Source of the DNA: Escherichia phage JLBYU08
Direction: 5' to 3' (one strand)
Sequence record: OK272482.1
Length of the DNA stretch: 64,000 nt
Below the pieces are notes generated by a model. The model had not been told where the DNA came from, searched no databases, and saw only the letters and a program-made list of their open reading frames with translations. Of the stretch, positions 19,566-29,258 are shown piece after piece (position 1 is the first letter of the stretch; each line of letters begins with the position of its first letter). The position numbers and the translations under genes were made by a program.

Positions 19566-19593
19566 AAAAATGCCCCACCCTTTCGGGCAGGGC
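19566..19593 (-). terminator. rho-independent terminator (copy 1 of an identical hairpin)
   Basis: Minus strand: GCCCTGCCC-GAAA-GGGTGGGGC followed by ATTTTT; identical hairpin at 30031-30057. Confidence 0.7.
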
Positions 19594-19608: not shown

Positions 19609-20835
19609 TTAAAATGGGATGTCATCATCAAAGACGTACTGTGCTGGATTCTGATCCATTGGGTCATCTTCCGCATCATTTACAGGAGGAGCGTCTACAG
19701 TGTTTTGCTGTGGAGCTGCTTCCTGTTTGGCAGCCTGAGGTTCTTGATGGTCAGTGGACTCAGCACCGTTCTTGATCCAATCGTACAACGGCTCAGCTAG
19801 ATTAGTCAAGACATCTTTTGCTTCTGCAGTAATTGCCACTGCAAAATCATCAACTTTCGTTTTCTTGTCAATACGGCGACAAGCGTTCAACACCGCATTA
19901 CCGACACTGGCACCTACTTCATCTTCAGTTCGGTTGGTGGCTTGAGCATACTCTTTCTTAAGCTCAATGGTGACTACGTGCAGTGTTTTAGCCACGCCCA
20001 GTGGGTCGTCTACCTTAAACCCGCGATCCAGGATGATCTGCAACGCATTGATGCTATGCCCCGTTTCCACACCGATAGGGTCGTAAGAGGATTTACGCTT
20101 GCCACCAGAGCCTTGAGTGCCGTTCTCTGCCTTAGGGGGATAGGCCTTGAAACCACTGATAATGTTTCCGGTGTCTTTGTCAACAATGGCTGCAACACGA
20201 CCACCTACCACCAGGTCTTTAAGCTGCTCATCAGTTACAACCATAGCACCTTCGCCAATCTTGTGGTCATTAACAGTAACCACGTTGCCAACAATCTGAG
20301 TCACATCACCATAGATGCGTAAAACGTCCTGATTGGCATTCTGCTGAGGTTTCTGCTTCTGGCCTTGTGATTGTGCACCTTGTTGCTGTTTTTGCTGCTG
20401 AGTCGCTGCTGGAGCCTCTCCTGCACCCAGCTTAACCATCTTAGCCAGTGAGCCCTTGTAATAGGTCTTACCGTTATGCTCGTTTGCCTTCAAAGGGATA
20501 TTTACGATCCATCCTGGCGTTACGGTTTCCCACTTGTCATCAATCTTAACAGAGACAGAGTCTTGATGACCTGGTTTAAGCAGCTTATCACCCATGCTGA
20601 TCCAGACTTCTTCACCACCTTGAAGCAGGTTATCAGAGGAATCCAGTTCAGAAATCAGTAAAGAGATGGTGTGGCTGGATTCAATTTTCTTACCTTGCCA
20701 CACAGTGGTTTTAATACCTGTTGTAGGATCAGCACCTTTGATAGGCTTAATGCTAACACGTTTAATCATGCCGTGAGCCAGTAAAACAGTTTCACGCGGA
20801 TTCATTGGGTTAGCGAATTGTTGAATAACGCTCAT
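19609..20835 (-). CDS. single-stranded DNA-binding protein-like, 408 aa, Gln-rich linker, C-terminus DDDIPF
   Basis: Last six residues identical to E. coli SSB tail; Q-rich linker; position beside replication genes; AAGGAG SD. Confidence 0.6.
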   Translation of the reverse strand: MSVIQQFANPMNPRETVLLAHGMIKRVSIKPIKGADPTTGIKTTVWQGKKIESSHTISLLISELDSSDNLLQGGEEVWISMGDKLLKPGHQDSVSVKIDDKWETVTPGWIVNIPLKANEHNGKTYYKGSLAKMVKLGAGEAPAATQQQKQQQGAQSQGQKQKPQQNANQDVLRIYGDVTQIVGNVVTVNDHKIGEGAMVVTDEQLKDLVVGGRVAAIVDKDTGNIISGFKAYPPKAENGTQGSGGKRKSSYDPIGVETGHSINALQIILDRGFKVDDPLGVAKTLHVVTIELKKEYAQATNRTEDEVGASVGNAVLNACRRIDKKTKVDDFAVAITAEAKDVLTNLAEPLYDWIKNGAESTDHQEPQAAKQEAAPQQNTVDAPPVNDAEDDPMDQNPAQYVFDDDIPF

Positions 20836-21200
20836 TATTTATCTCCTTGTTCTTCGTTAGTGTTTGCCGTGTGTGCAAACCCTGCTTGAATTAATTTGTC
20901 CTGAACTTGAGCCAACAGGCCCATTGCAAAACTTGTGGTCCCAGAGAGGGCCATTAGCATATCTCGTTGTTGAGCTACCCAACCTAAGGCATAGTCCAAA
21001 CGACGATATTTTTCTTCTTCGCGCAGAGCCTGAAATAATTGTTCAGCCTCCGGTTGTTGTGTGAGCTCCTGAAGTCTTCCCATGAAAGAAGAAAGCACTA
21101 GCAAAAGAGACACTTGATCTTTACTTAACCCTAAGAAAAATTCTTGAGGTTGTTCTTGCTCGTTCATCGCAACCGACTCTTGATCGTTCATTTGTTCCAT
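20835..21200 (-). CDS. hypothetical protein, 121 aa, acidic
   Basis: ORF with GGAGAT SD; TAATG coupling to SSB-like gene. Confidence 0.55.
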   Translation of the reverse strand: MEQMNDQESVAMNEQEQPQEFFLGLSKDQVSLLLVLSSFMGRLQELTQQPEAEQLFQALREEEKYRRLDYALGWVAQQRDMLMALSGTTSFAMGLLAQVQDKLIQAGFAHTANTNEEQGDK

Positions 21201-21283
21201 TATGGAATCTCCGATTTTATTTGAACAACATAGAAGGAGACACTATTTTAGCATCCCCTTCTGTAAATTACAATAGGTATTTG

Positions 21284-21529
21284 TTAGTCAATCACTTCAA
21301 AAGTTCCCCAATTCCCGTCCAGCAGGCAGGTGATCGGATCCCCATCGTCGTCAAAGATTTCAAAGTTCTCAGCATCCAGGATGTGGCCCTCGAACACAAT
21401 ACTTTCGTCGCCACCACCAGAAATAACAGCGTATTCCTTACCTTGAGTCAAGTTTTGACATCCTTTGCCACCAAAACCTACTTCAACACAACGTACTTTC
21501 TGTCCTGCGCGAGCAACTACTTCAGTCAT
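21284..21529 (-). CDS. hypothetical protein, 81 aa
   Basis: ORF with CAGGAGA SD. Confidence 0.6.
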   Translation of the reverse strand: MTEVVARAGQKVRCVEVGFGGKGCQNLTQGKEYAVISGGGDESIVFEGHILDAENFEIFDDDGDPITCLLDGNWGTFEVID

Positions 21530-21546
21530 CTTAAGGTCTCCTGATA

Positions 21547-21849
21547 TTAATCGTCAAGTTCAAAATAGATTTTAACAGCTTCATCAAAGATTGGAATCCC
21601 GATGTTGTTGATAAGCTGCCAAACTACCATATCTTTGCCTGGGTCTGGGAGAATGTCAACCTTTCTCCATGCGCTGTATATCCAGTTTGGACCACCTTCT
21701 GCACTAACTGGCAGATTTTCACCAGCCTCCTGCAGATACTTATACAGCAAAAGATATTCTGGATACTCTAGAACACTGTCCTCTGTAGTATATAGCAGTT
21801 CACGGTATACTTTTAAGAACCCTGCTGGGGTGATGTTTTCAGTCTTCAT
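21547..21849 (-). CDS. hypothetical protein, about 100 aa
   Basis: GGGAGAAG SD before second ATG. Confidence 0.55.
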   Translation of the reverse strand: MKTENITPAGFLKVYRELLYTTEDSVLEYPEYLLLYKYLQEAGENLPVSAEGGPNWIYSAWRKVDILPDPGKDMVVWQLINNIGIPIFDEAVKIYFELDD

Positions 21850-22231
21850 TTGCTGCTTCTCCCGCATTCATCAGATCTGCCATAGCGTCACCCACGAAGA
21901 GAACAACCACATCGTTTACCGCGTCAGCATCATCTTTGTTGACGTTGCTGAATTTAGGACACACAGCAATAATCATATAGACACCGTTACCAACCTGAAC
22001 TGTCCGTGTGGTGCACATCATGGTGGTATTTGTGCCTTCTTTGAAGGCGAAGCCTTGAAGACGCTCCTCTAAAGTGTTACCGGTAGATTTCAGAAGCGCC
22101 AGCTCGTCCAAGGCATAGATGATATCTCCGGAAGTTAGTGTTGCCTTGCCATCAGACACCATAATAACTCCATCAGCACCGTCAAGCTTAGAGGCTTCAA
22201 AGATATCAATATCCCAAATATTTTTCATCAC
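21839..22231 (-). CDS. hypothetical protein, 130 aa
   Basis: ORF with GAGGAAG SD. Confidence 0.55.
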   Translation of the reverse strand: MMKNIWDIDIFEASKLDGADGVIMVSDGKATLTSGDIIYALDELALLKSTGNTLEERLQGFAFKEGTNTTMMCTTRTVQVGNGVYMIIAVCPKFSNVNKDDADAVNDVVVLFVGDAMADLMNAGEAANED

Positions 22232-22488
22232 GCTTCCTCGTCGTCTAAAGAGTTGAAGATTTCACCGAAGTATTCTAAGACTTCTAGCTCCCGTGTGGTG
22301 CAGAAAACACAGTCACCGTTGTCATCCTCGATAACGGCCTCTTTACCCAGCACATCTACTTCAAGTTTATCGTTCAACAGGACAGCCCCTGTGTAAACTT
22401 TGTCGGCTGTGCAGTCCCGAAAAGCAGAGTCTTTCTCCAGATAGTCTGGCTTAACCTTGGCTTTAATTCGTTGGTATTGTTTGGTCAT
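22228..22488 (-). CDS. hypothetical protein, about 86 aa
   Basis: AAAGGGGA SD before internal ATG; track ORF begins at TTG. Confidence 0.45.
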   Translation of the reverse strand: MTKQYQRIKAKVKPDYLEKDSAFRDCTADKVYTGAVLLNDKLEVDVLGKEAVIEDDNGDCVFCTTRELEVLEYFGEIFNSLDDEEA

Positions 22489-22551
22489 TGCTGTGGTCCC
22501 CTTTCGTTTTGATAGGGCCATTATATTAGGCTCCATCACTGTTGTCAAGTA

Positions 22552-22773
22552 TTAATGTTCAGGTTTTACAAAAACTACTTCATTAACAGTGCACCAGACA
22601 GAGTCTCCTTCATCATCTTTAAAGGTAAGGCACTGTGCTGAGTTTTCCAGCTCATCGATCTCTTCTTGTGATAAAGGGGCCCCTTCTTCCAGGAGGGCTT
22701 TTACCAGGGGGGTTCTCACAAAACTCTGCTTCATAAATTGCACCGACTGTGCAATCTTTAAAAGCTCGGTCAT
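22552..22773 (-). CDS. hypothetical protein, about 73 aa
   Basis: ORF; no clear SD. Confidence 0.4.
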   Translation of the reverse strand: MTELLKIAQSVQFMKQSFVRTPLVKALLEEGAPLSQEEIDELENSAQCLTFKDDEGDSVWCTVNEVVFVKPEH

Positions 22774-22883
22774 TTGCAACGCATTCTGACTTCAAAGTAA
22801 TTTTCATCTTGGCAGTCTCCTTAGTTATTTAAAAATCAACGCTCTGTTTGTGTGAAACATCTTATATCTAATCTTACTTCTTG

Positions 22884-23255
22884 TCAATGACTATTTTCAA
22901 TCAGCCACACAGGGTCGAGGTAAATTTGTTGGCGTGTTGCCCAATGACAAACTTCATTGTACATCTGAACCTCTTTGTCTGTCAATTCACGAATAGGCTC
23001 ATCTATACCCTCATTTTTGTGGTAATCCCAGTCGGCATCGATTTCCCACAGCCATGACTTGTTGTCACCACGCTTACGCACACAGAAGTCACCAGGACGG
23101 CCTGCCAGTGCATTTAAGAACTCGTTCTCTGCTCGCTCCTGAAGAATGCTAAGGAGCAAAACGTTAGAACATGACCGTAGAATATGCTTCAGCTCACAAT
23201 CATCAATCTCAACTTCAATACGCTGTTTGACTGTGTGAGTACCTTTTACTAACAT
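22884..23255 (-). CDS. hypothetical protein, about 123 aa
   Basis: GGGGAGG SD before internal ATG. Confidence 0.55.
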   Translation of the reverse strand: MLVKGTHTVKQRIEVEIDDCELKHILRSCSNVLLLSILQERAENEFLNALAGRPGDFCVRKRGDNKSWLWEIDADWDYHKNEGIDEPIRELTDKEVQMYNEVCHWATRQQIYLDPVWLIENSH

Positions 23256-23265
23256 CCTGCCTCCC

Positions 23266-23460
23266 CTATACAAACTCTGCAAGTGTTGTGTTGTTCACTG
23301 CACCGCAGTAAATGGAGTATCCCAGCCCATTAAAGTGCAGAAACCACGGCGTGCCGGAATTATCTTTCACGTAGACATCGCCGTTGCTTGTAAAGGGCCA
23401 ATATTCTTCACCAAGGGTGAAATACCTACTCATACCCTCAGCCAGATACTTTACTTTCAT
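23266..23460 (-). CDS. small protein, 64 aa; member of a three-gene tandem paralogue set
   Basis: Shares pattern F..G..Y.V...D..G..W(F/Y) with the two upstream genes; ATGA coupling. Confidence 0.55.
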   Translation of the reverse strand: MKVKYLAEGMSRYFTLGEEYWPFTSNGDVYVKDNSGTPWFLHFNGLGYSIYCGAVNNTTLAEFV

Positions 23461-23684
23461 AGGCCCTCTTCAACAGCTACAAACTTGGCAAGCAGGGTGG
23501 TTCCGTAGATATGATACTCACCGTTTGCCAGATGGGAGATAAACCAGGCAATCCCTTCCTCGTCTTTAATCATCTTGTTTGCACGATTTTTATCGTAATA
23601 AACCTCGTAGGTCTTTCCTTCTTTAAAGAATGACAGGTCTGTCATCTTTTCTTCTACAAAGGTAGCTTTAACCAAAGTCGTCAT
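23457..23684 (-). CDS. small protein, 75 aa; tandem paralogue
   Basis: AAGGAG SD; ATGA coupling; shared motif. Confidence 0.6.
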   Translation of the reverse strand: MTTLVKATFVEEKMTDLSFFKEGKTYEVYYDKNRANKMIKDEEGIAWFISHLANGEYHIYGTTLLAKFVAVEEGL

Positions 23685-23965
23685 TGATCGGTCTCCTTCT
23701 TGTTAAGTCTGAATACTGCAATAATAGCATTCCCAAGGTGCAGTGTCAAGTCATTTCCAAGATACCACAGCATCCCACGGTCATCTTTAATGAAAGGGTA
23801 ACAATCTGGTGCCTTCCAGACATTGTACACTTTCCCAACCTGAAAGAAATCAGGCCCTGTTGGGATTTTGGTGCCAGGCCACACTTGAGATACCTGAACA
23901 CACTCCACCTGCATAATAACAGGAATGGTCATGGATGTAAATGTTTTTGTTGGCTCTACTACCAT
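23681..23965 (-). CDS. small protein, about 94 aa; tandem paralogue (start at MVVEPTK)
   Basis: AAAGAGGAGA SD before internal ATG; track ORF N-terminus would overlap polymerase exon 2. Confidence 0.55.
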   Translation of the reverse strand: MVVEPTKTFTSMTIPVIMQVECVQVSQVWPGTKIPTGPDFFQVGKVYNVWKAPDCYPFIKDDRGMLWYLGNDLTLHLGNAIIAVFRLNKKETDQ

Positions 23966-24014
23966 AAAAGTCTCCTCTTTGCTCAACAACACTTCCATGT
24001 GTTGATAGTTTACA

Positions 24015-24368
24015 TTAGTGACAATCACCCCAATTACGACCACACAAGTATTCACCTGTGATCTGGAACGGGACTCCCATCATTTTAGAAGCTTGCCAGA
24101 AGCAATGTACCACCATTTCGCCCACAGGACTCCAGATAAGTTCAAGCTTTCCGTCATCGTTCAAGATAGGATCGTACACCGTGTTTCCGTCTCTGTCAAC
24201 CACTTCGTTTCCGTTTTCATCCTTGCGTGCCTTTTTGTACTTATGACCGTCGAACACATGAAGTTTGGCCTCCTGCTCTGCCTTAAATGCTTCCAATTCT
24301 TCAATTGTGTCGAAGGTGTACACAGTCTTATACTTCGGTGTGTCAGGTACTTGAAGCTGATATTCATC
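24015..24368 (-). CDS. DNA polymerase (family A) exon 2: motif C (H|DEYQLQV) and C-terminal end ...NWGDCH
   Basis: Supplies the HDE motif and terminal His absent from the upstream 809-aa ORF; follows the omega-G of the intron. Confidence 0.75.
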   Translation of the reverse strand, partial: DEYQLQVPDTPKYKTVYTFDTIEELEAFKAEQEAKLHVFDGHKYKKARKDENGNEVVDRDGNTVYDPILNDDGKLELIWSPVGEMVVHCFWQASKMMGVPFQITGEYLCGRNWGDCH

Positions 24369-24697
24369 CATCTGTTCAGGTAGGTCGTTAAGCTACCCCG
24401 CACCATTACGTGCATAGCCATACAGTTTCCTGTATGGATCGGACTACCTCACTGCCTTGGTAACAAGGCACCTCCCATTTCGACCGCACTTGCTGGCCTA
24501 CTCTACTCGCTTCTTCACACCAACCTATGTTGGAGCTATGCTTTCGATAGTCTCTGAACGTTCATCCTCTCGGATGCTTCGCTGCGGATTAGCATATTGA
24601 GCTTTTACCATACTCAGGTGTAAAAGTCAACTTAGCTTTCCCGTCAATTAAAGAGGTTATTCGACATAGATCACTCTATGAAGCCACAATGTTATTT
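24369..24697 (-). mobile_element. group I self-splicing intron, 329 nt, no internal ORF
   Basis: AAUUGACGGGAAAG, GUUCAGAGACUA and GGUAGUCCGA elements; exon 1 ends in U, intron ends in G; in-frame TAA just inside intron. Confidence 0.8.
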
Positions 24698-27121
24698 ATG
24701 GTAATAGATAATACGACGGACACCTTCATCGTACCACCCACGCTTCACCATTTGGTGGTGCATGAGTATCCCAACTAAGTCACACAACGATGCACCACCA
24801 TTTTGTTGGTATGCATTAAGTAAAGAGTGTTTAGATCGGGTCCAGATGGCATGACCATCAAAAGAGTATATAAACTTCTTACCAGTTGCTTCCCAGAATT
24901 TCTCCAGATCCTCTTTACGCCCCTTAAGACCAGGGTTGGCATCCCAAAGCGCATCGATTACCCTTTGCCCCAACTCTGGAGAGATATCCAGCATGTCTGC
25001 AACTTTATCTTTTTGTGCCCCGTACATAACCCCATACGTGATAGGTTTACCGTCGTTACGGGACACCTCTCTGCCTGCTACTTTTGTATATGCCTCAGCA
25101 TTGTTTTGGTGTGCGTCCCCGTTACTTACAACATCATAATACAAGCCGTTGTCGAACTCAAAGGCACCCCAAGCCCCGATAAGCTGCTCTAAGTTGGACC
25201 CGTCAATACCGATCTCAAAGTATCCTGGAGGAACACCCCACAGACTACGCATCTCTTTACCCATAACCACTTTAGGAGATGGTTTAGGCATGTTTGCACA
25301 AATACTGTGTTTCTGTCGGGAAGTGTTTGTTAGCCCAGAACTTTTAGCAGGAAGCTTATGGTCAATCTTCAAACGTGGGTGATTAAGAAGACCAGTATCA
25401 ACCTTATCCTCCTTGATTGGATCAAGGACCGATCTGCGGTTTCGCAATGATAACCACAAGACGATATCTTTAGCCATCTCTCCGTTCAATTTTTCAAGAT
25501 TTGGGCATAGGTGTCCAAACGTATCTTTCAGCTGCGGAGAAGTAATAAGTGCTCTGGCTTTTCTACGTATTTTCCCGAATACTTCCTTTTTAATCCTTTC
25601 GGAGTTAGGAAAGCTTCGGAACTTGTGCACGGTTGTCTGAAACTTAGCATCAGTTTTGTTCCAGAAGTTGATAATCAGGTCACAATACTCTGACTCTAAA
25701 AGCTCGTCCATGTATGCATATACTCGTGCATCAACATCTGCATCAGGTAGAGCTTTCTTCTTGCTGTCTTTAGTTACATCCTTAGTTCTCCACATTGTCG
25801 GAAGCCAACCAGCACTGATCAGGTATCGCTTAATGTCGTCCTGATTGCTGATTTTCATAGGTATCTTGCAGTCCGGCATTCGCTTCTGCTGTAGATCACT
25901 TATTGCCTGATCCATCAGCTCTTTAGGTAAAGGTTGTGGTGTGGAAGTGCCCTTAATATAGCCTCTCAAGAAATCAGCCATCTTATCAGGGTCTTTGCAG
26001 CCCATCTCTTCACACCATTTTATCCCCATCTTGCTGACATCTCCTGTGGAGGTAAATGCTCGCTTAGGCGGGGCTTTGAACTCCAAAGCACTCATGTCCA
26101 CAGGATAGCCAAGCTTATCTTTTAACCATTTCCAACCATTGTTGGAGATTGTCCCATCTTGGTTAAACGGCTTTTCAGGGAACTTGGGCCGCTGAGACAT
26201 TGACAGCTCTTTTAAAGGAAGTTGAGGTTCAACACGATCAGCGATTTCTTTCATCCACGCATCGCAACGGTCACGTAAAGCAATAGCTCCATCTATGTCG
26301 AAGTATACACCCTGACGGGCCTGCAGCTCCATCAGGAAGTGCTGCAGCATGCCTCGACGTAGTGCGTTCTTCCAGGTGATCTTCTTGAACCCTTTCGGCT
26401 TCTCTTTGGCTGGATCGTACATAAAGTTCTGCATGTCAGATTTGCCGTAGAATACACCTTTTGATTCCGCTACCAGCTCTTTCCAGAGCAGCTCCTGGAT
26501 GATAACGTCCTCGAATACACGATCCACATACTTCCACAACGGAAGATCGCGCCAGTCATCAATTTGAACTTTCTGGTTACCAAGGGCGTAGCCCCATGCC
26601 ATAAGGCCGTGAGGACCAACAGGCTGCATTTTCTTAGTAACCGGGTTGAATACAGAGTCCGGACAACCTTTTGGTAAAGGGCGATCAGGCCACAAGATTC
26701 GGCTCATCGCCAACGTATCAAACAGGTTAACCTGGTGGTCGTTGATAGTCCCCATACATTTAGGATCACGGAACATATCAAAATGAATACCGGATAATCT
26801 CTCCATCAGCATAAAGTCATAACTGTAGCAGTTATGGCAGTTCAAAGCTGTTGGTGACCAGTCGGAATTGCCTGTAAGCCAACCCTCCAACTCTGAAAAA
26901 TCTGCTATGCGAACTTCAAAATCTTTATAAAAAGTTTTCTTTGCCAGAATAAAGTTCTTAGCCTTCTCTATATCCTCTTCGGAGTAGTGTGTGCGGTCAT
27001 TTAGAGGAAGGAACAGCATAAAACGGTTCTTATTCAGCTCTTTAAACAGGCCGCAGTGATAATAAAGATCTGGGTCTTCCAGCAAACCGGATGACTCAAA
27101 ATCGAACGACCACATGCTCAT
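24698..27121 (-). CDS. DNA polymerase (family A) exon 1: 3'-5' exonuclease and polymerase domains through motif B
   Basis: N-terminal WSFDFESSG exo motif; IGIDGSNLEQL (motif A-like); KPITYGVMYGAQ (motif B); AAGGAGAA SD. Confidence 0.9.
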
Positions 27122-27179
27122 ATACAGTTCTCCTTAAAGGGGAGGTGGTTGTACTACCCCTCCCACTCTTTGTTAAACA

Positions 27180-29258
27180 TTAAAAAGGTGTTTCATCATC
27201 CTCAAAACCAGGGACCGGATCAGAGGATGGATCATCGTATTGGAGGTCTTCCTGCGTGTCAATAGGCTTGACAGTGGGTGTTACAACCTTATCAGCCACA
27301 ACCTTGCCCATAGGTGTTTCTACAACTGCATGCTCCTGATCCTCAAACATAGCCTGAGGTCTCCAAACAACCTCCCCACCTTCTCCGTCTGTGAACATCT
27401 GCATTTCTTTGTCCCAGTACCAATTACTGGCATCATAGAACTTACCTGTATGCGGATCCATAACTAAAGTGTCAGCAATACCTAAAGTTTTTGCTGGACG
27501 GTTTTTAAGACCTACCAGACGGACACGTCCACGAGAACGATCCACCATTTCTTCGGCCTCGACACCTATGACTACCCAACTCAACTGTTCAAGCCCAGCC
27601 GATCCTCGCAAATTCTCTTTTCGCACAGGATACCAGAAAGGTAATGGGTTACCATCCTTGTCCTTAGGGGGCACAATCTCTGTACGTTTGAGGTGAGCGA
27701 TCACCAAGATAAACACGTTAAACTGCTTACAAAACGCAGCCAGTTGGGTCATAGCCATGTCCAGTTCTTTTCGCTCATCCTTAACATTAAGCCCTGAAAT
27801 TACCATGGACAGGTGATCCAGCACAATATAACGACAATGGTACAGGCAAACCATTTGCTTAAGCTTGGTAATCAACTCGTCCACTGGAATAGACCCGAAA
27901 TGTTTGAACACTTTGATTTTTCCAGCTTTTGCCCATGATTGGTGAATCTCTGCGTGTTCTTGATCAGTTAAAAACTGGCTAGGATCTTCAACAAACTCTT
28001 TAACATCAAACCCTAACTGGTTTGCATACAAGGAGTTAATTGCTTCCTCTGGGTCCTCCTCAAGATGAATCATGCATAGACGATCATCCTCTTCATAGTC
28101 ATCGGCCTTCGGGCATGTCGGGTCCATTAGGTATCTTGCAATACAGTGTTCCAGTTTTTTAGCCACGGTTGTTTTACCGCCGCCTGATGGACCTGTAAGC
28201 ATTACAAGTGTCCCTTTGTGCAAGCCTTTTAGCATTTTTTGCAGTTTTGGGAACTCTGCACTGATATCTACCCCGTTGGAAGTCTTTTTCCGCAAAGACT
28301 CGATAGAGAAGTCTTCTAAATCCGACACAGCATCAGGCACATATTTAACAGGGTGCCGGAACATGTTGACAATATCTTCCAGCTTTTTAGCCTTCAGCAT
28401 GTCTCGGATATCTTTTACACCGTCAGGGTCATTTACTTCACCAGGGTATTCTACGTGGTAAACGTTATCAGCCATCAAAAATGCTGCGATATTGTGCGTG
28501 GCCTCAACACCTTTAATGACGTGTTTTTGCTTCTCTACCTCGTTAGCTGCATCGTTATCCATTGCCAGCACAACTGTTCCATAGCTACGGATAAACTTCT
28601 CATTGTTTGCAAAAGTATCTACTGCGTTTGCACATCCACAGTTAATTCCAACAAAAGGCAGGCAGGGTTTTCCTGCCAGATCACCACCGTTGATAACTGC
28701 GTCGATCCCGTCCTGGACCTCTTTAGCCCACTGCTTCACCTTTGCCGGGGCTTTAGCGTTGGTGAGAATCCCTTTTACTTGTATCTGATATGCAGCCTGC
28801 CATGCTGCAATAACATCACCTTCTCCCTCACAAACGTTAATCTGCTTACGGTTGTTGGAAGATGCACACAGCTTTTGACCAAACATCTGGGAGTTGGCCT
28901 TTACGATACCAACAACGGAGAAATGGCCCCTTTGCTCTTTAGGAATAGTCCAGTCACGCTTTTTGAAACCAGACAGATTTCCGTAGCGGTCGTAATATGG
29001 GAAATATGTTGCAGTGACTGTCACACCGTCTTCTTGGGACAATGCTGATCGCACACCAAAATATTGTGCAGCCATCAGACCGATATTTTGTTGTGGGACA
29101 GGGACAATTTTAGTATTTTCTAAAACAGTCTCTACAGTTTCAACTTCTTTTTCATCACGATAGTCTCGTTTCACACTTCCCCCACTTTTATACTTAGTTT
29201 CTTTCGGGTTTGGCTCACCGAAACGGTTGTATGCAGATGCCATAAATTTACTTCCCAT
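27180..29258 (-). CDS. primase-helicase (T7 gp4-like: TOPRIM primase plus DnaB-like helicase), 692 aa, acidic tail ending in F
   Basis: VCEGEGD and LAMDNDAANE TOPRIM motifs; Walker A TGPSGGGKTT; Walker B IVLDHL; C-terminus EDDETPF; AAGGAG SD. Confidence 0.85.
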   Translation of the reverse strand: MGSKFMASAYNRFGEPNPKETKYKSGGSVKRDYRDEKEVETVETVLENTKIVPVPQQNIGLMAAQYFGVRSALSQEDGVTVTATYFPYYDRYGNLSGFKKRDWTIPKEQRGHFSVVGIVKANSQMFGQKLCASSNNRKQINVCEGEGDVIAAWQAAYQIQVKGILTNAKAPAKVKQWAKEVQDGIDAVINGGDLAGKPCLPFVGINCGCANAVDTFANNEKFIRSYGTVVLAMDNDAANEVEKQKHVIKGVEATHNIAAFLMADNVYHVEYPGEVNDPDGVKDIRDMLKAKKLEDIVNMFRHPVKYVPDAVSDLEDFSIESLRKKTSNGVDISAEFPKLQKMLKGLHKGTLVMLTGPSGGGKTTVAKKLEHCIARYLMDPTCPKADDYEEDDRLCMIHLEEDPEEAINSLYANQLGFDVKEFVEDPSQFLTDQEHAEIHQSWAKAGKIKVFKHFGSIPVDELITKLKQMVCLYHCRYIVLDHLSMVISGLNVKDERKELDMAMTQLAAFCKQFNVFILVIAHLKRTEIVPPKDKDGNPLPFWYPVRKENLRGSAGLEQLSWVVIGVEAEEMVDRSRGRVRLVGLKNRPAKTLGIADTLVMDPHTGKFYDASNWYWDKEMQMFTDGEGGEVVWRPQAMFEDQEHAVVETPMGKVVADKVVTPTVKPIDTQEDLQYDDPSSDPVPGFEDDETPF

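What the first reader, a model, noticed from the sequence alone, without database searches (positions are those of the whole stretch)
19609..29258. SSB-like protein and primase-helicase both end in acidic tails with a terminal phenylalanine
The 408-aa SSB-like protein ends ...FDDDIPF, identical in its last six residues to the E. coli SSB tip that recruits host replication and repair proteins. The primase-helicase ends ...GFEDDETPF. In T7, acidic F-terminal tails of gp2.5 and gp4 mediate replisome contacts, so this phage may use the same logic and the SSB tail could also bind host SSB-interacting proteins.
Basis: partly seen in the sequence, partly recalled or inferred. Interest (0 to 1): 0.5.

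Follow-up and report, generated by a model that had tools for sequence, protein, structure and literature searches.

The report
Phage SSB and helicase share tails
In this rV5-like E. coli phage, an unannotated protein predicted to bind single-stranded DNA carries the exact tail tip of the host's own SSB, and the T7-type primase-helicase carries a related tip; most of the first point was already published in a 2026 preprint, so this is solid but mostly ordinary.

Summary
ORF 19609-20835(-) ends FDDDIPF, the same last seven residues as E. coli SSB. The primase-helicase 27180-29258(-) ends FEDDETPF. They are the only two of 299 six-frame ORFs that end in PF.

It is 99% identical to Bas52_0087. 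An April 2026 preprint already describes that protein as SSB-like with an FDDDIPF tip and as the trigger of the DRT10 defence, which is modulated by host ExoI.

New here:
- The tip is a family hallmark: 113 of 150 cluster representatives end in PF.
- The helicase tip is conserved just as well but is systematically different. Position -3 is S/T/E/C, against I/V/L in the SSB-like family.
- The closest solved relatives of the helicase and the polymerase are T7 gp4 and gp5.

The T7-style 'tails as tethers' reading is therefore plausible but untested.

One complication: about 40% of Vequintavirus genomes, rV5 included, carry a homing-endonuclease cassette that extends the protein by a conserved 15-residue cap, so the Phe is no longer terminal.

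The parts
19609..20835 (-). Gene for the 408-aa SSB-like protein (ortholog of Bas52_0087; phrog_4477). Its ATG overlaps the stop codon of the upstream 121-aa ORF.
   Evidence: 403/408 identical to QXV84166.1.
20419..20835 (-). Residues 1-139: N-terminal beta domain, predicted SSB-like OB fold with long hairpins. Holds the family motif E-x-NGKTYY.
20128..20328 (-). Residues 170-236: compact second OB fold (b1-b2-b3-short helix-b4-b5), preceded by a Q-rich disordered linker (residues 140-169). It is absent from the 270-300-aa short-form homologues.
19768..20085 (-). Residues 251-356: four-helix bundle, the most conserved part of the family (G255, G259, H260, N263, G312, L316 invariant). It holds D252 and Y351, the DRT10-escape positions. 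Probably an oligomerisation or partner surface.
   Evidence: (pLDDT 93-97). There is no convincing fold match for the helices.
19612..19749 (-). Residues 363-408: disordered acidic tail. The tip FDDDIPF lies at 19612-19632 and is identical to the last 7 residues of E. coli SSB.
   Evidence: (pLDDT below 50 for residues 363-402).
19566..19593 (-). GC-rich hairpin plus T-run (terminator-like), 15 nt after the TAA. In relatives, homing-endonuclease cassettes sit between the Phe codon and this hairpin.
   Evidence: Sequences.
27180..29258 (-). T7 gp4-type primase-helicase, 692 aa: TOPRIM-like motifs (VCEGEGD, AMDNDAANE) plus a DnaB_C/RecA-type helicase. There is no N-terminal zinc ribbon.
   Evidence: phrog_239; T7 gp4, E 4.5e-16.
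27183..27341 (-). Acidic C-terminal tail of the primase-helicase (about residues 640-692; the tail start is read by eye from the sequence, not measured). The tip FEDDETPF lies at 27183-27206.
   Evidence: D-x-D-[STEC]-P-F in 114/120 homologues.
24015..27121 (-). T7-like family A DNA polymerase, the candidate receptor of the tails. Exon 1 is 24698-27121, a group I intron is 24369-24697, and exon 2 is 24015-24368. The splice falls inside motif C (YYH|DEY).
   Evidence: (RF00028, 72.5 bits).

Best explanation
The 408-aa protein is the phage's own single-stranded-DNA-binding protein. It has a non-canonical build: an SSB-like OB fold, a second small OB fold, a four-helix bundle that probably makes the oligomer, and a disordered acidic tail. 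The tail's last seven residues copy the host SSB tip. It works with a T7-type replisome, made of a gp4-like primase-helicase and a gp5-like Pol A polymerase.

Both the SSB and the primase-helicase end in flexible acidic tails that present a ...D-x-P-F carboxy-terminus. I infer that these tips dock into basic or hydrophobic pockets of partner proteins. The helicase tip ([S/T/E/C]-P-F) would most likely dock on the phage polymerase, as gp4's DTDF does in T7. The SSB tip ([I/V/L]-P-F, host-identical) would dock on pockets that normally accept host SSB, such as ExoI/SbcB, and possibly also on phage replisome proteins.

Shown: the sequences, their conservation, the predicted folds, the gene context, the homology to T7 gp4 and gp5, and (from the literature) the role of this protein as a DRT10 trigger modulated by ExoI. 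Inferred: ssDNA binding, oligomerisation, and every tail-partner contact.
For: - Tails and their rarity in the window.
- Tip identical to E. coli SSB.
- Family-wide conservation of the tips, each with its own signature at position -3.
- No other SSB-type OB among the window's ORFs.
- Conserved synteny of primase-helicase, Pol A and the SSB-like gene, even in distant contigs.
- T7 gp4 and gp5 are the best solved relatives.
- In T7, the tails of gp2.5 and gp4 bind the polymerase's basic patch (PDB 6P7E holds the DTDF peptide): PMC12339929.
- A phage SSB tail ending in PPF is needed to recruit its cognate phage partner Sak4: PMC5928155.
- Bas52_0087, 99% identical, is required for DRT10 activation; SbcB dosage modulates that response; escape mutations fall in the helical domain: bioRxiv 10.64898/2026.04.29.721553.
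Against: - There is no binding or ssDNA-binding data.
- T7's front basic patch KWKRRWIKGLDGRK aligns to GKKFIYSFDGHA, so only two basic residues are kept.
- In distant relatives the helicase ends ...NKDF or ...EGSY rather than PF.
- 52 of about 127 Vequintavirus records, rV5 included, encode a 15-aa extension after the Phe. A free carboxy-terminal Phe therefore cannot be strictly required for viability, unless the cap is removed or is itself functional.
- Expression of the protein alone is not toxic.
Confidence: 0.6

Rival explanations
1. The SSB tip is mainly an anti-host or host-hijacking device. By copying the host SSB tip it competes for, or recruits, host SSB-interacting proteins (ExoI, RecQ, PriA, chi and others). 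It has no role in phage replisome contacts, and the helicase tail is unrelated in function. This reading is not exclusive of the best explanation.
For: The tip is identical to E. coli SSB over 7 residues, and over 12 (EPPMDFDDDIPF) in some relatives. [I/V/L]PF, the bacterial consensus, is kept in 162 of 169 family members from many hosts. SbcB overexpression weakens the DRT10 response that this protein triggers.
Against: Expression of the protein alone does not affect E. coli viability. Many natural alleles cap the tip. In HK620, a comparable phage SSB tail serves a phage partner.
Confidence: 0.35
2. The acidic tails act chiefly in cis. They fold back on the protein's own DNA-binding surface (the OB groove, or the helicase or primase surface) as DNA mimics that tune ssDNA affinity, as described for T7 gp2.5, T4 gp32 and E. 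coli SSB. The terminal Phe anchors this self-contact.
For: Both tails carry a net acidic excess of about 6-7 in their last 25 residues. Both are predicted to be disordered. The Sak4 paper cites literature on a weak SSB-tail/OB contact and discusses it.
Against: This does not explain why the SSB tip is letter-for-letter that of the host, or why the helicase and SSB tips keep different -3 residues. In the known cases the cis and trans roles coexist.
Confidence: 0.2
3. The 408-aa protein is not the replicative SSB but another OB-fold DNA-metabolism factor that merely carries an SSB-type tip, for example a recombination mediator, an annealing protein or a helicase loader.
Confidence: 0.15
4. The likeness of the two tails is a by-product of mobile DNA. 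The same homing-endonuclease family inserts right after the PF codon in SSB, SSB-like and primase-helicase genes, and co-conversion spread a tail-coding segment between genes. On this reading the tips are largely dispensable.
For: The same cap and related endonuclease genes follow the PF codon in all three gene classes. Capped alleles are common.
Against: Each family keeps its own -3 residue, even in capped alleles (DDDTPF-APIG... in primase-helicases, DDDIPF-APIG... in SSBs). PF stays invariant across deep divergence. This points to selection on the tips rather than recent copying.
Confidence: 0.07

Closest known systems
Bas52_0087 (QXV84166.1) of Escherichia phage RudolfGeigy, the 'SSB-like' trigger of the DRT10/UG17 reverse-transcriptase defence (bioRxiv 10.64898/2026.04.29.721553)
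   Same: 99% identical (403/408). It has the same length, the same FDDDIPF tip, and D252 and Y351 at the same positions. The preprint's AlphaFold reading (two OB folds plus a disordered C-terminus) agrees.
   Different: Nothing material; it is the same protein. The preprint does not mention the primase-helicase tail ('primase' occurs 0 times). In the passages read, it also does not cover the family-wide survey or the capped alleles.
E. coli SSB (PF00436 OB domain, intrinsically disordered linker, SSB-Ct tip DDDIPF)
   Same: The overall logic is the same: an OB fold, a low-complexity linker and an acidic tip. The last 7 residues are identical. The predicted N-domain superposes on bacterial SSB OB domains over 79-97 residues.
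   Different: There is no detectable sequence homology in the body. The phage protein has an extra second OB fold and a conserved four-helix bundle, and its oligomeric state is unknown.
Bacteriophage T7 replisome: gp2.5 SSB, gp4 primase-helicase, gp5 polymerase
   Same: The helicase and polymerase are homologous to gp4 and gp5. Both the SSB and the helicase carry acidic tails that end in Phe, as in T7, where both tails bind the polymerase's basic patches.
   Different: The SSB is unrelated in sequence to gp2.5; the only link is a weak Foldseek hit to a DUF2815 protein. The tips here end in P-F, not D-F, and the SSB tip copies the host's. The front basic patch is only partly conserved. The primase part has no zinc ribbon.
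Phage HK620 SSB and its cognate recombinase Sak4 (PMC5928155)
   Same: This is a phage SSB whose last six residues (NDYPPF, also ending in PF) are required to recruit a phage-encoded partner to SSB-coated ssDNA.
   Different: HK620 SSB is a canonical-type tetrameric SSB from a recombination module, not from a T7-type replication module.

Membership tests
phrog_4477 / Bas52_0087 family (phage 'SSB-like' proteins) | Full-length sequence similarity to the family profile | tested here: met
   phrog_4477 E 7.5e-173 over residues 1-408; 99% identity to Bas52_0087; 241 clusters at 50% identity with E <= 1e-3.
Bacterial-type SSB (Pfam PF00436) | OB domain recognisable by the SSB profile | tested here: not met
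   No Pfam hit for the full protein. 28 N-domains scanned at E <= 5 give no PF00436 hit, and a single member hits Phage_SSB at E 0.062. phmmer with SSB OB domains finds nothing in the window.
Bacterial-type SSB (Pfam PF00436) | OB fold of the ssDNA-binding type | tested here: inconclusive
Bacterial-type SSB (Pfam PF00436) | Disordered linker followed by an acidic tip ending D-D-D-[IL]-P-F | tested here: met
Bacterial-type SSB (Pfam PF00436) | Binds ssDNA; homotetramer | not testable with these tools
   Needs EMSA and SEC-MALS.
T7 gp2.5-type SSB (DUF2815 / phage ssDNA-binding domain) | Sequence or fold similarity to gp2.5-like proteins | tested here: not met
T7 gp2.5-type SSB (DUF2815 / phage ssDNA-binding domain) | Acidic C-terminal tail with a terminal Phe | tested here: met
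T7 gp4-type primase-helicase | TOPRIM primase domain fused to a DnaB/RecA-type hexameric helicase domain | tested here: met
   DnaB_C 2.2e-13 and AAA_25 2e-15; phrog_239 'DNA primase/helicase' 7.5e-160; T7 gp4 is the best PDB hit at 4.5e-16; homologues carry Toprim_2.
T7 gp4-type primase-helicase | N-terminal Cys4 zinc-binding domain (full-length gp4A form) | tested here: not met
   The first 130 residues contain no Cys pair (sequence).
T7 gp4-type primase-helicase | Acidic C-terminal tail with a terminal aromatic residue that binds the polymerase | tested here: inconclusive
   The tail and the terminal Phe are present and conserved. Binding is not testable here, and the polymerase's front basic patch is only partly conserved.

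The most novel reading that the evidence does not exclude
The conserved 15-residue cap (A-P-[IV]-G-L-Q-Y-x4-I-[YH]-x-[LI]) follows the ...PF tip in many phage SSBs, SSB-like proteins and primase-helicases. It usually arrives with a small Zn-finger/HNH homing-endonuclease gene that starts inside it.

On the novel reading, the cap is not a read-through accident but a mobile module that switches SSB-type tips off or re-targets them. Tip availability would then be polymorphic in natural phage populations. So would host-factor recruitment and recognition by SSB-sensing defences such as DRT10. The endonuclease family would home on the DNA that encodes the tip.
Probability: 0.2. Interest if true: 0.7.

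Novelty: new member of a known kind. Interest (0 to 1): 0.4.

Why it matters
It gives a function to a gene labelled 'hypothetical' in every Vequintavirus record examined here (four annotated relatives inspected, plus the feature names listed). It also shows that these 137-kb myoviruses run a T7-style minimal replisome.

The SSB-like protein is already known, from a preprint, to trigger a reverse-transcriptase defence that host ExoI modulates. Two facts here therefore point directly at experiments on how phage replication proteins plug into the host SSB interaction network and how defences sense them:
- Its tip is a family-wide, host-identical SSB-Ct.
- A related but distinct tip sits on the helicase.

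The capped alleles provide natural 'tip-masked' variants for such tests.

Tried and rejected
- **Sequence searches on the 408-aa protein.** Pfam, PHROGs (function) and PDB sequence searches gave nothing except the tail.
- **Weak-hit survey of N-domains.** 28 diverse N-domains scanned against Pfam and PDB gave only noise.
- **hhalign of the N-domain profile against the T1-like phage ECH1 SSB**, which shares an 'E-x-NGK-x-Y' motif: probability 7%, so rejected as evidence of homology.
- **Foldseek against AFDB50** was not available.
- **Foldseek against BFVD** returned only uncharacterised homologues and weak SSB, DUF2815 and LEF-3 hits.
- **Fold of the four-helix bundle.** I looked for a match and found nothing convincing.
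- **The cap as an accidental read-through.** I considered this and set it aside. The APIGLQY codons differ at synonymous sites among three loci, and HK75 and phi92 keep a cap with no endonuclease next to it. Part of the conservation (G, Q-Y) could still reflect the endonuclease's ribosome-binding site and its ATG, which lies within CAA-TAT-G.
- **The cap as a group I intron reading frame.** I found no support: the splice-site logic does not restore IPF-stop.
- **Literature.** A search for the cap peptide strings found no paper.
Full report
**1. What is there**

The window is an rV5-like myovirus (genus Vequintavirus). The 9.6-kb region is 96-98% identical to phages C12, I29, FFH2, rV5_ev146 and several BASEL phages. 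ORF 19609..20835(-) encodes 408 aa ending ...YVFDDDIPF. ORF 27180..29258(-) encodes 692 aa ending ...PGFEDDETPF. Among 299 six-frame ORFs of at least 50 aa, these are the only two that end in PF and the only two that contain an acidic-x-PF motif at all. The match to E. coli SSB is seven residues (FDDDIPF). When the family profile is run against all PDB sequences, the only hits are the tails of bacterial SSBs (...EPPMDFDDDIPF).

**2. What the 408-aa protein is**

Sequence methods give nothing for the body of the protein:
- no Pfam family;
- phrog_4477 'unknown function';
- no PDB relative;
- 'hypothetical protein' in the GenBank, RefSeq and BASEL records that were examined.

An AlphaFold2 model built from 30 homologues has five parts:
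- a beta-rich domain (residues 1-139, pLDDT 80-93);
- a Q-rich disordered linker (140-169);
- a small five-stranded beta domain with a short helix between strands 3 and 4 (170-236);
- a four-helix bundle (251-356);
- a disordered acidic tail (363-402) before the tip.

No canonical SSB OB domain is detectable in any ORF of the window.

**3. This part is already in the literature**

A bioRxiv preprint of April 2026 (10.64898/2026.04.29.721553) reports the following:
- Escape mutants of BASEL phage Bas52 against the DRT10 (UG17) reverse-transcriptase defence map to Bas52_0087 (D252V, Y351C).
- The protein carries an FDDDIPF motif like the E. coli SSB tip.
- Overexpressing host SbcB (ExoI, a known SSB-tip-binding enzyme) weakens the defence.
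- Expressing the protein alone is neither toxic nor sufficient to trigger the system.

The window's protein is 403/408 identical to Bas52_0087 and has D252 and Y351. Both residues lie in the four-helix bundle of my model. The preprint contains the word 'primase' zero times.

**4. What is added here**

(a) *The tip is a hallmark of the whole family.* An exhaustive profile search finds 241 clusters at 50% identity. Of the 150 listed, 113 end in PF and 4 have PF plus an extension. Several have one extra residue or end in PW or xF, and most of the rest are fragments. Two architectures exist. The long form, about 380-415 aa, has both OB folds. The short form, about 270-300 aa, lacks the middle OB.

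(b) *The primase-helicase tip is as well conserved as the SSB tip.* 114 of 120 homologues, down to about 42% identity and including Vibrio phages, carry the PF tip (112 end in it, two are capped).

(c) *The two tips are related but not interchangeable by sequence.* Position -3 is I/V/L in 162 of 169 SSB-like tails and S/T/E/C in 111 of 114 helicase tails. Both have D at -4 and -6 and a net acidic excess of 6-7 in the last 25 residues. Each family keeps its own -3 residue even in capped alleles. This argues for selection on two distinct specificities.

(d) *The replisome is T7-type.* The only solved relatives found by sequence are T7 gp4 (and, weakly, Twinkle) for the helicase (E 4.5e-16) and T7 gp5 for the polymerase (E 9e-15). 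The gene order primase-helicase, Pol A, SSB-like is kept in two distant metagenomic contigs.

**5. How it most likely works**

By established knowledge of T7, the acidic Phe-terminal tails of gp2.5 and gp4 dock on basic patches of gp5. PDB 6P7E holds the gp4 peptide DTDF, and the front patch consists of K587, K589, R590 and R591 (PMC12339929). In HK620, a PF-terminal phage SSB tail recruits the phage's own Sak4 (PMC5928155). The SSB-Ct peptide of E. coli SSB is the docking element for ExoI, RecQ, PriA, chi and others; this is textbook knowledge and is also cited.

On that basis I infer that the helicase tail tethers the polymerase. I infer that the host-identical SSB tip gives access to pockets built for host SSB, and perhaps also to phage partners. 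This is inference; no contact was tested.

Caveats:
- T7's KWKRRWIKGLDGRK aligns to GKKFIYSFDGHA, so only the two residues matching R590/R591 stay basic.
- In the distant contigs the helicases end ...NKDF and ...EGSY. A terminal aromatic residue persists, but PF does not.
- The protein alone is harmless to E. coli.

**6. An unexpected complication: capped tips**

Many homologues do not stop at Phe. They continue with a 15-residue extension, for example ...DDIPF-APVGLQYGKSRIHAL.

In phage EmilHeitz the extension overlaps the start of a 207-aa 'homing endonuclease' gene. That gene is inserted exactly between the Phe codon and the terminator hairpin that follows the stop codon in the window. This cassette is present in 52 of about 127 Vequintavirus records, including the type phage rV5.

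The same cap, usually with a related small endonuclease, follows the PF codon of three gene classes:
- primase-helicases (Seunavirus KE23; P0069 and P0078);
- canonical or T1-type SSBs (ECH1);
- the SSB-like family.

The endonucleases share the N-terminus K-x-C-x-KCG...FYKH..M.DG..NKCKEC. A tblastn search with tip plus cap finds 232 phage records, and 212 of them cover most of the query. HK75 SSB and phi92 gp156 carry a cap with no endonuclease beside them. The APIGLQY codons differ at synonymous positions between loci, which suggests constraint at the peptide level. The endonuclease's ribosome-binding site and its ATG (inside CAA-TAT-G) may explain part of that conservation. No paper holds these peptide strings.

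The consequence for the finding is this. A free terminal Phe is not indispensable for these phages, or the cap is removed, or the cap has its own function. PF remains invariant in capped alleles, so the tip seems to stay under selection. The window itself carries the uncapped allele.

**7. Verdict**

In novelty, this is a new member of known kinds: an SSB with an SSB-Ct tip and a gp4-like helicase with an aromatic acidic tail. The most novel thread is the mobile cap on SSB-type tips.

Noticed in passing
Window 19609-19614 (insertion point); L001 2357-3000; L004 1540-1969; L005 1520-2005; L003 1520-1572; L006 2501-2572: A conserved 15-aa cap (A-P-[IV]-G-L-Q-Y-x4-I-[YH]-x-[LI]) follows the ...PF tip in many phage SSBs, SSB-like proteins and primase-helicases. 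A small Zn-finger/HNH 'endonuclease VII' gene usually starts inside it in another frame. The cassette is in 52 of about 127 Vequintavirus records, rV5 included, and tip plus cap is found in 232 phage records. HK75 and phi92 have the cap without the endonuclease. Its function is unknown, and no literature was found.
   Followed up: partly
Window 24369-24697 (-): The Pol A gene is split inside motif C (YYH|DEY) by a group I intron (Rfam RF00028, 72.5 bits, E 2e-18). The intron carries no endonuclease ORF here. Relatives such as FFH2, EmilHeitz and rV5_ev146 carry an HNH gene in the same intron, and BASEL records annotate the polymerase as a join.
   Followed up: yes
L010 586-1164 and L011 586-1164 (phages WalterGehring, HeinrichReichert): A different 'putative homing endonuclease' (192 aa) sits 8 nt downstream of an intact 408-aa gene and leaves the Phe terminal. 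The same intergenic spot therefore hosts at least two kinds of endonuclease cassette.
   Followed up: no
L001 13148-13819; L007 29825-30559; L007 26757-27263: The replication module is a hot spot for homing endonucleases. An HNH_3+AP2 gene lies between the Dcm methylase and the primase-helicase in EmilHeitz. An HNH gene lies between the primase-helicase and the polymerase in FFH2, and another lies in the polymerase intron. The window lacks all of them.
   Followed up: no
L009 8878-9534: In a distant 143-kb contig, a 218-aa protein encoded between Pol A and the SSB-like gene also ends in an acidic tail with a terminal Phe (...SLDDAWDDKF). It may be a third tail-bearing replisome component in that lineage.
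   Followed up: no
Window 27180-29258 (-), residues 1-130: The primase-helicase has TOPRIM-like motifs but no N-terminal Cys4 zinc ribbon, unlike full-length T7 gp4. How primer sites are recognised is unclear.
   Followed up: no
Window 20835-21200 (-): A 121-aa ORF (phrog_7310, unknown function) ends where the SSB-like gene starts, with an ATGA overlap. It is conserved next to that gene in all the Vequintavirus relatives examined, so it may be translationally coupled and a functional partner.
   Followed up: no
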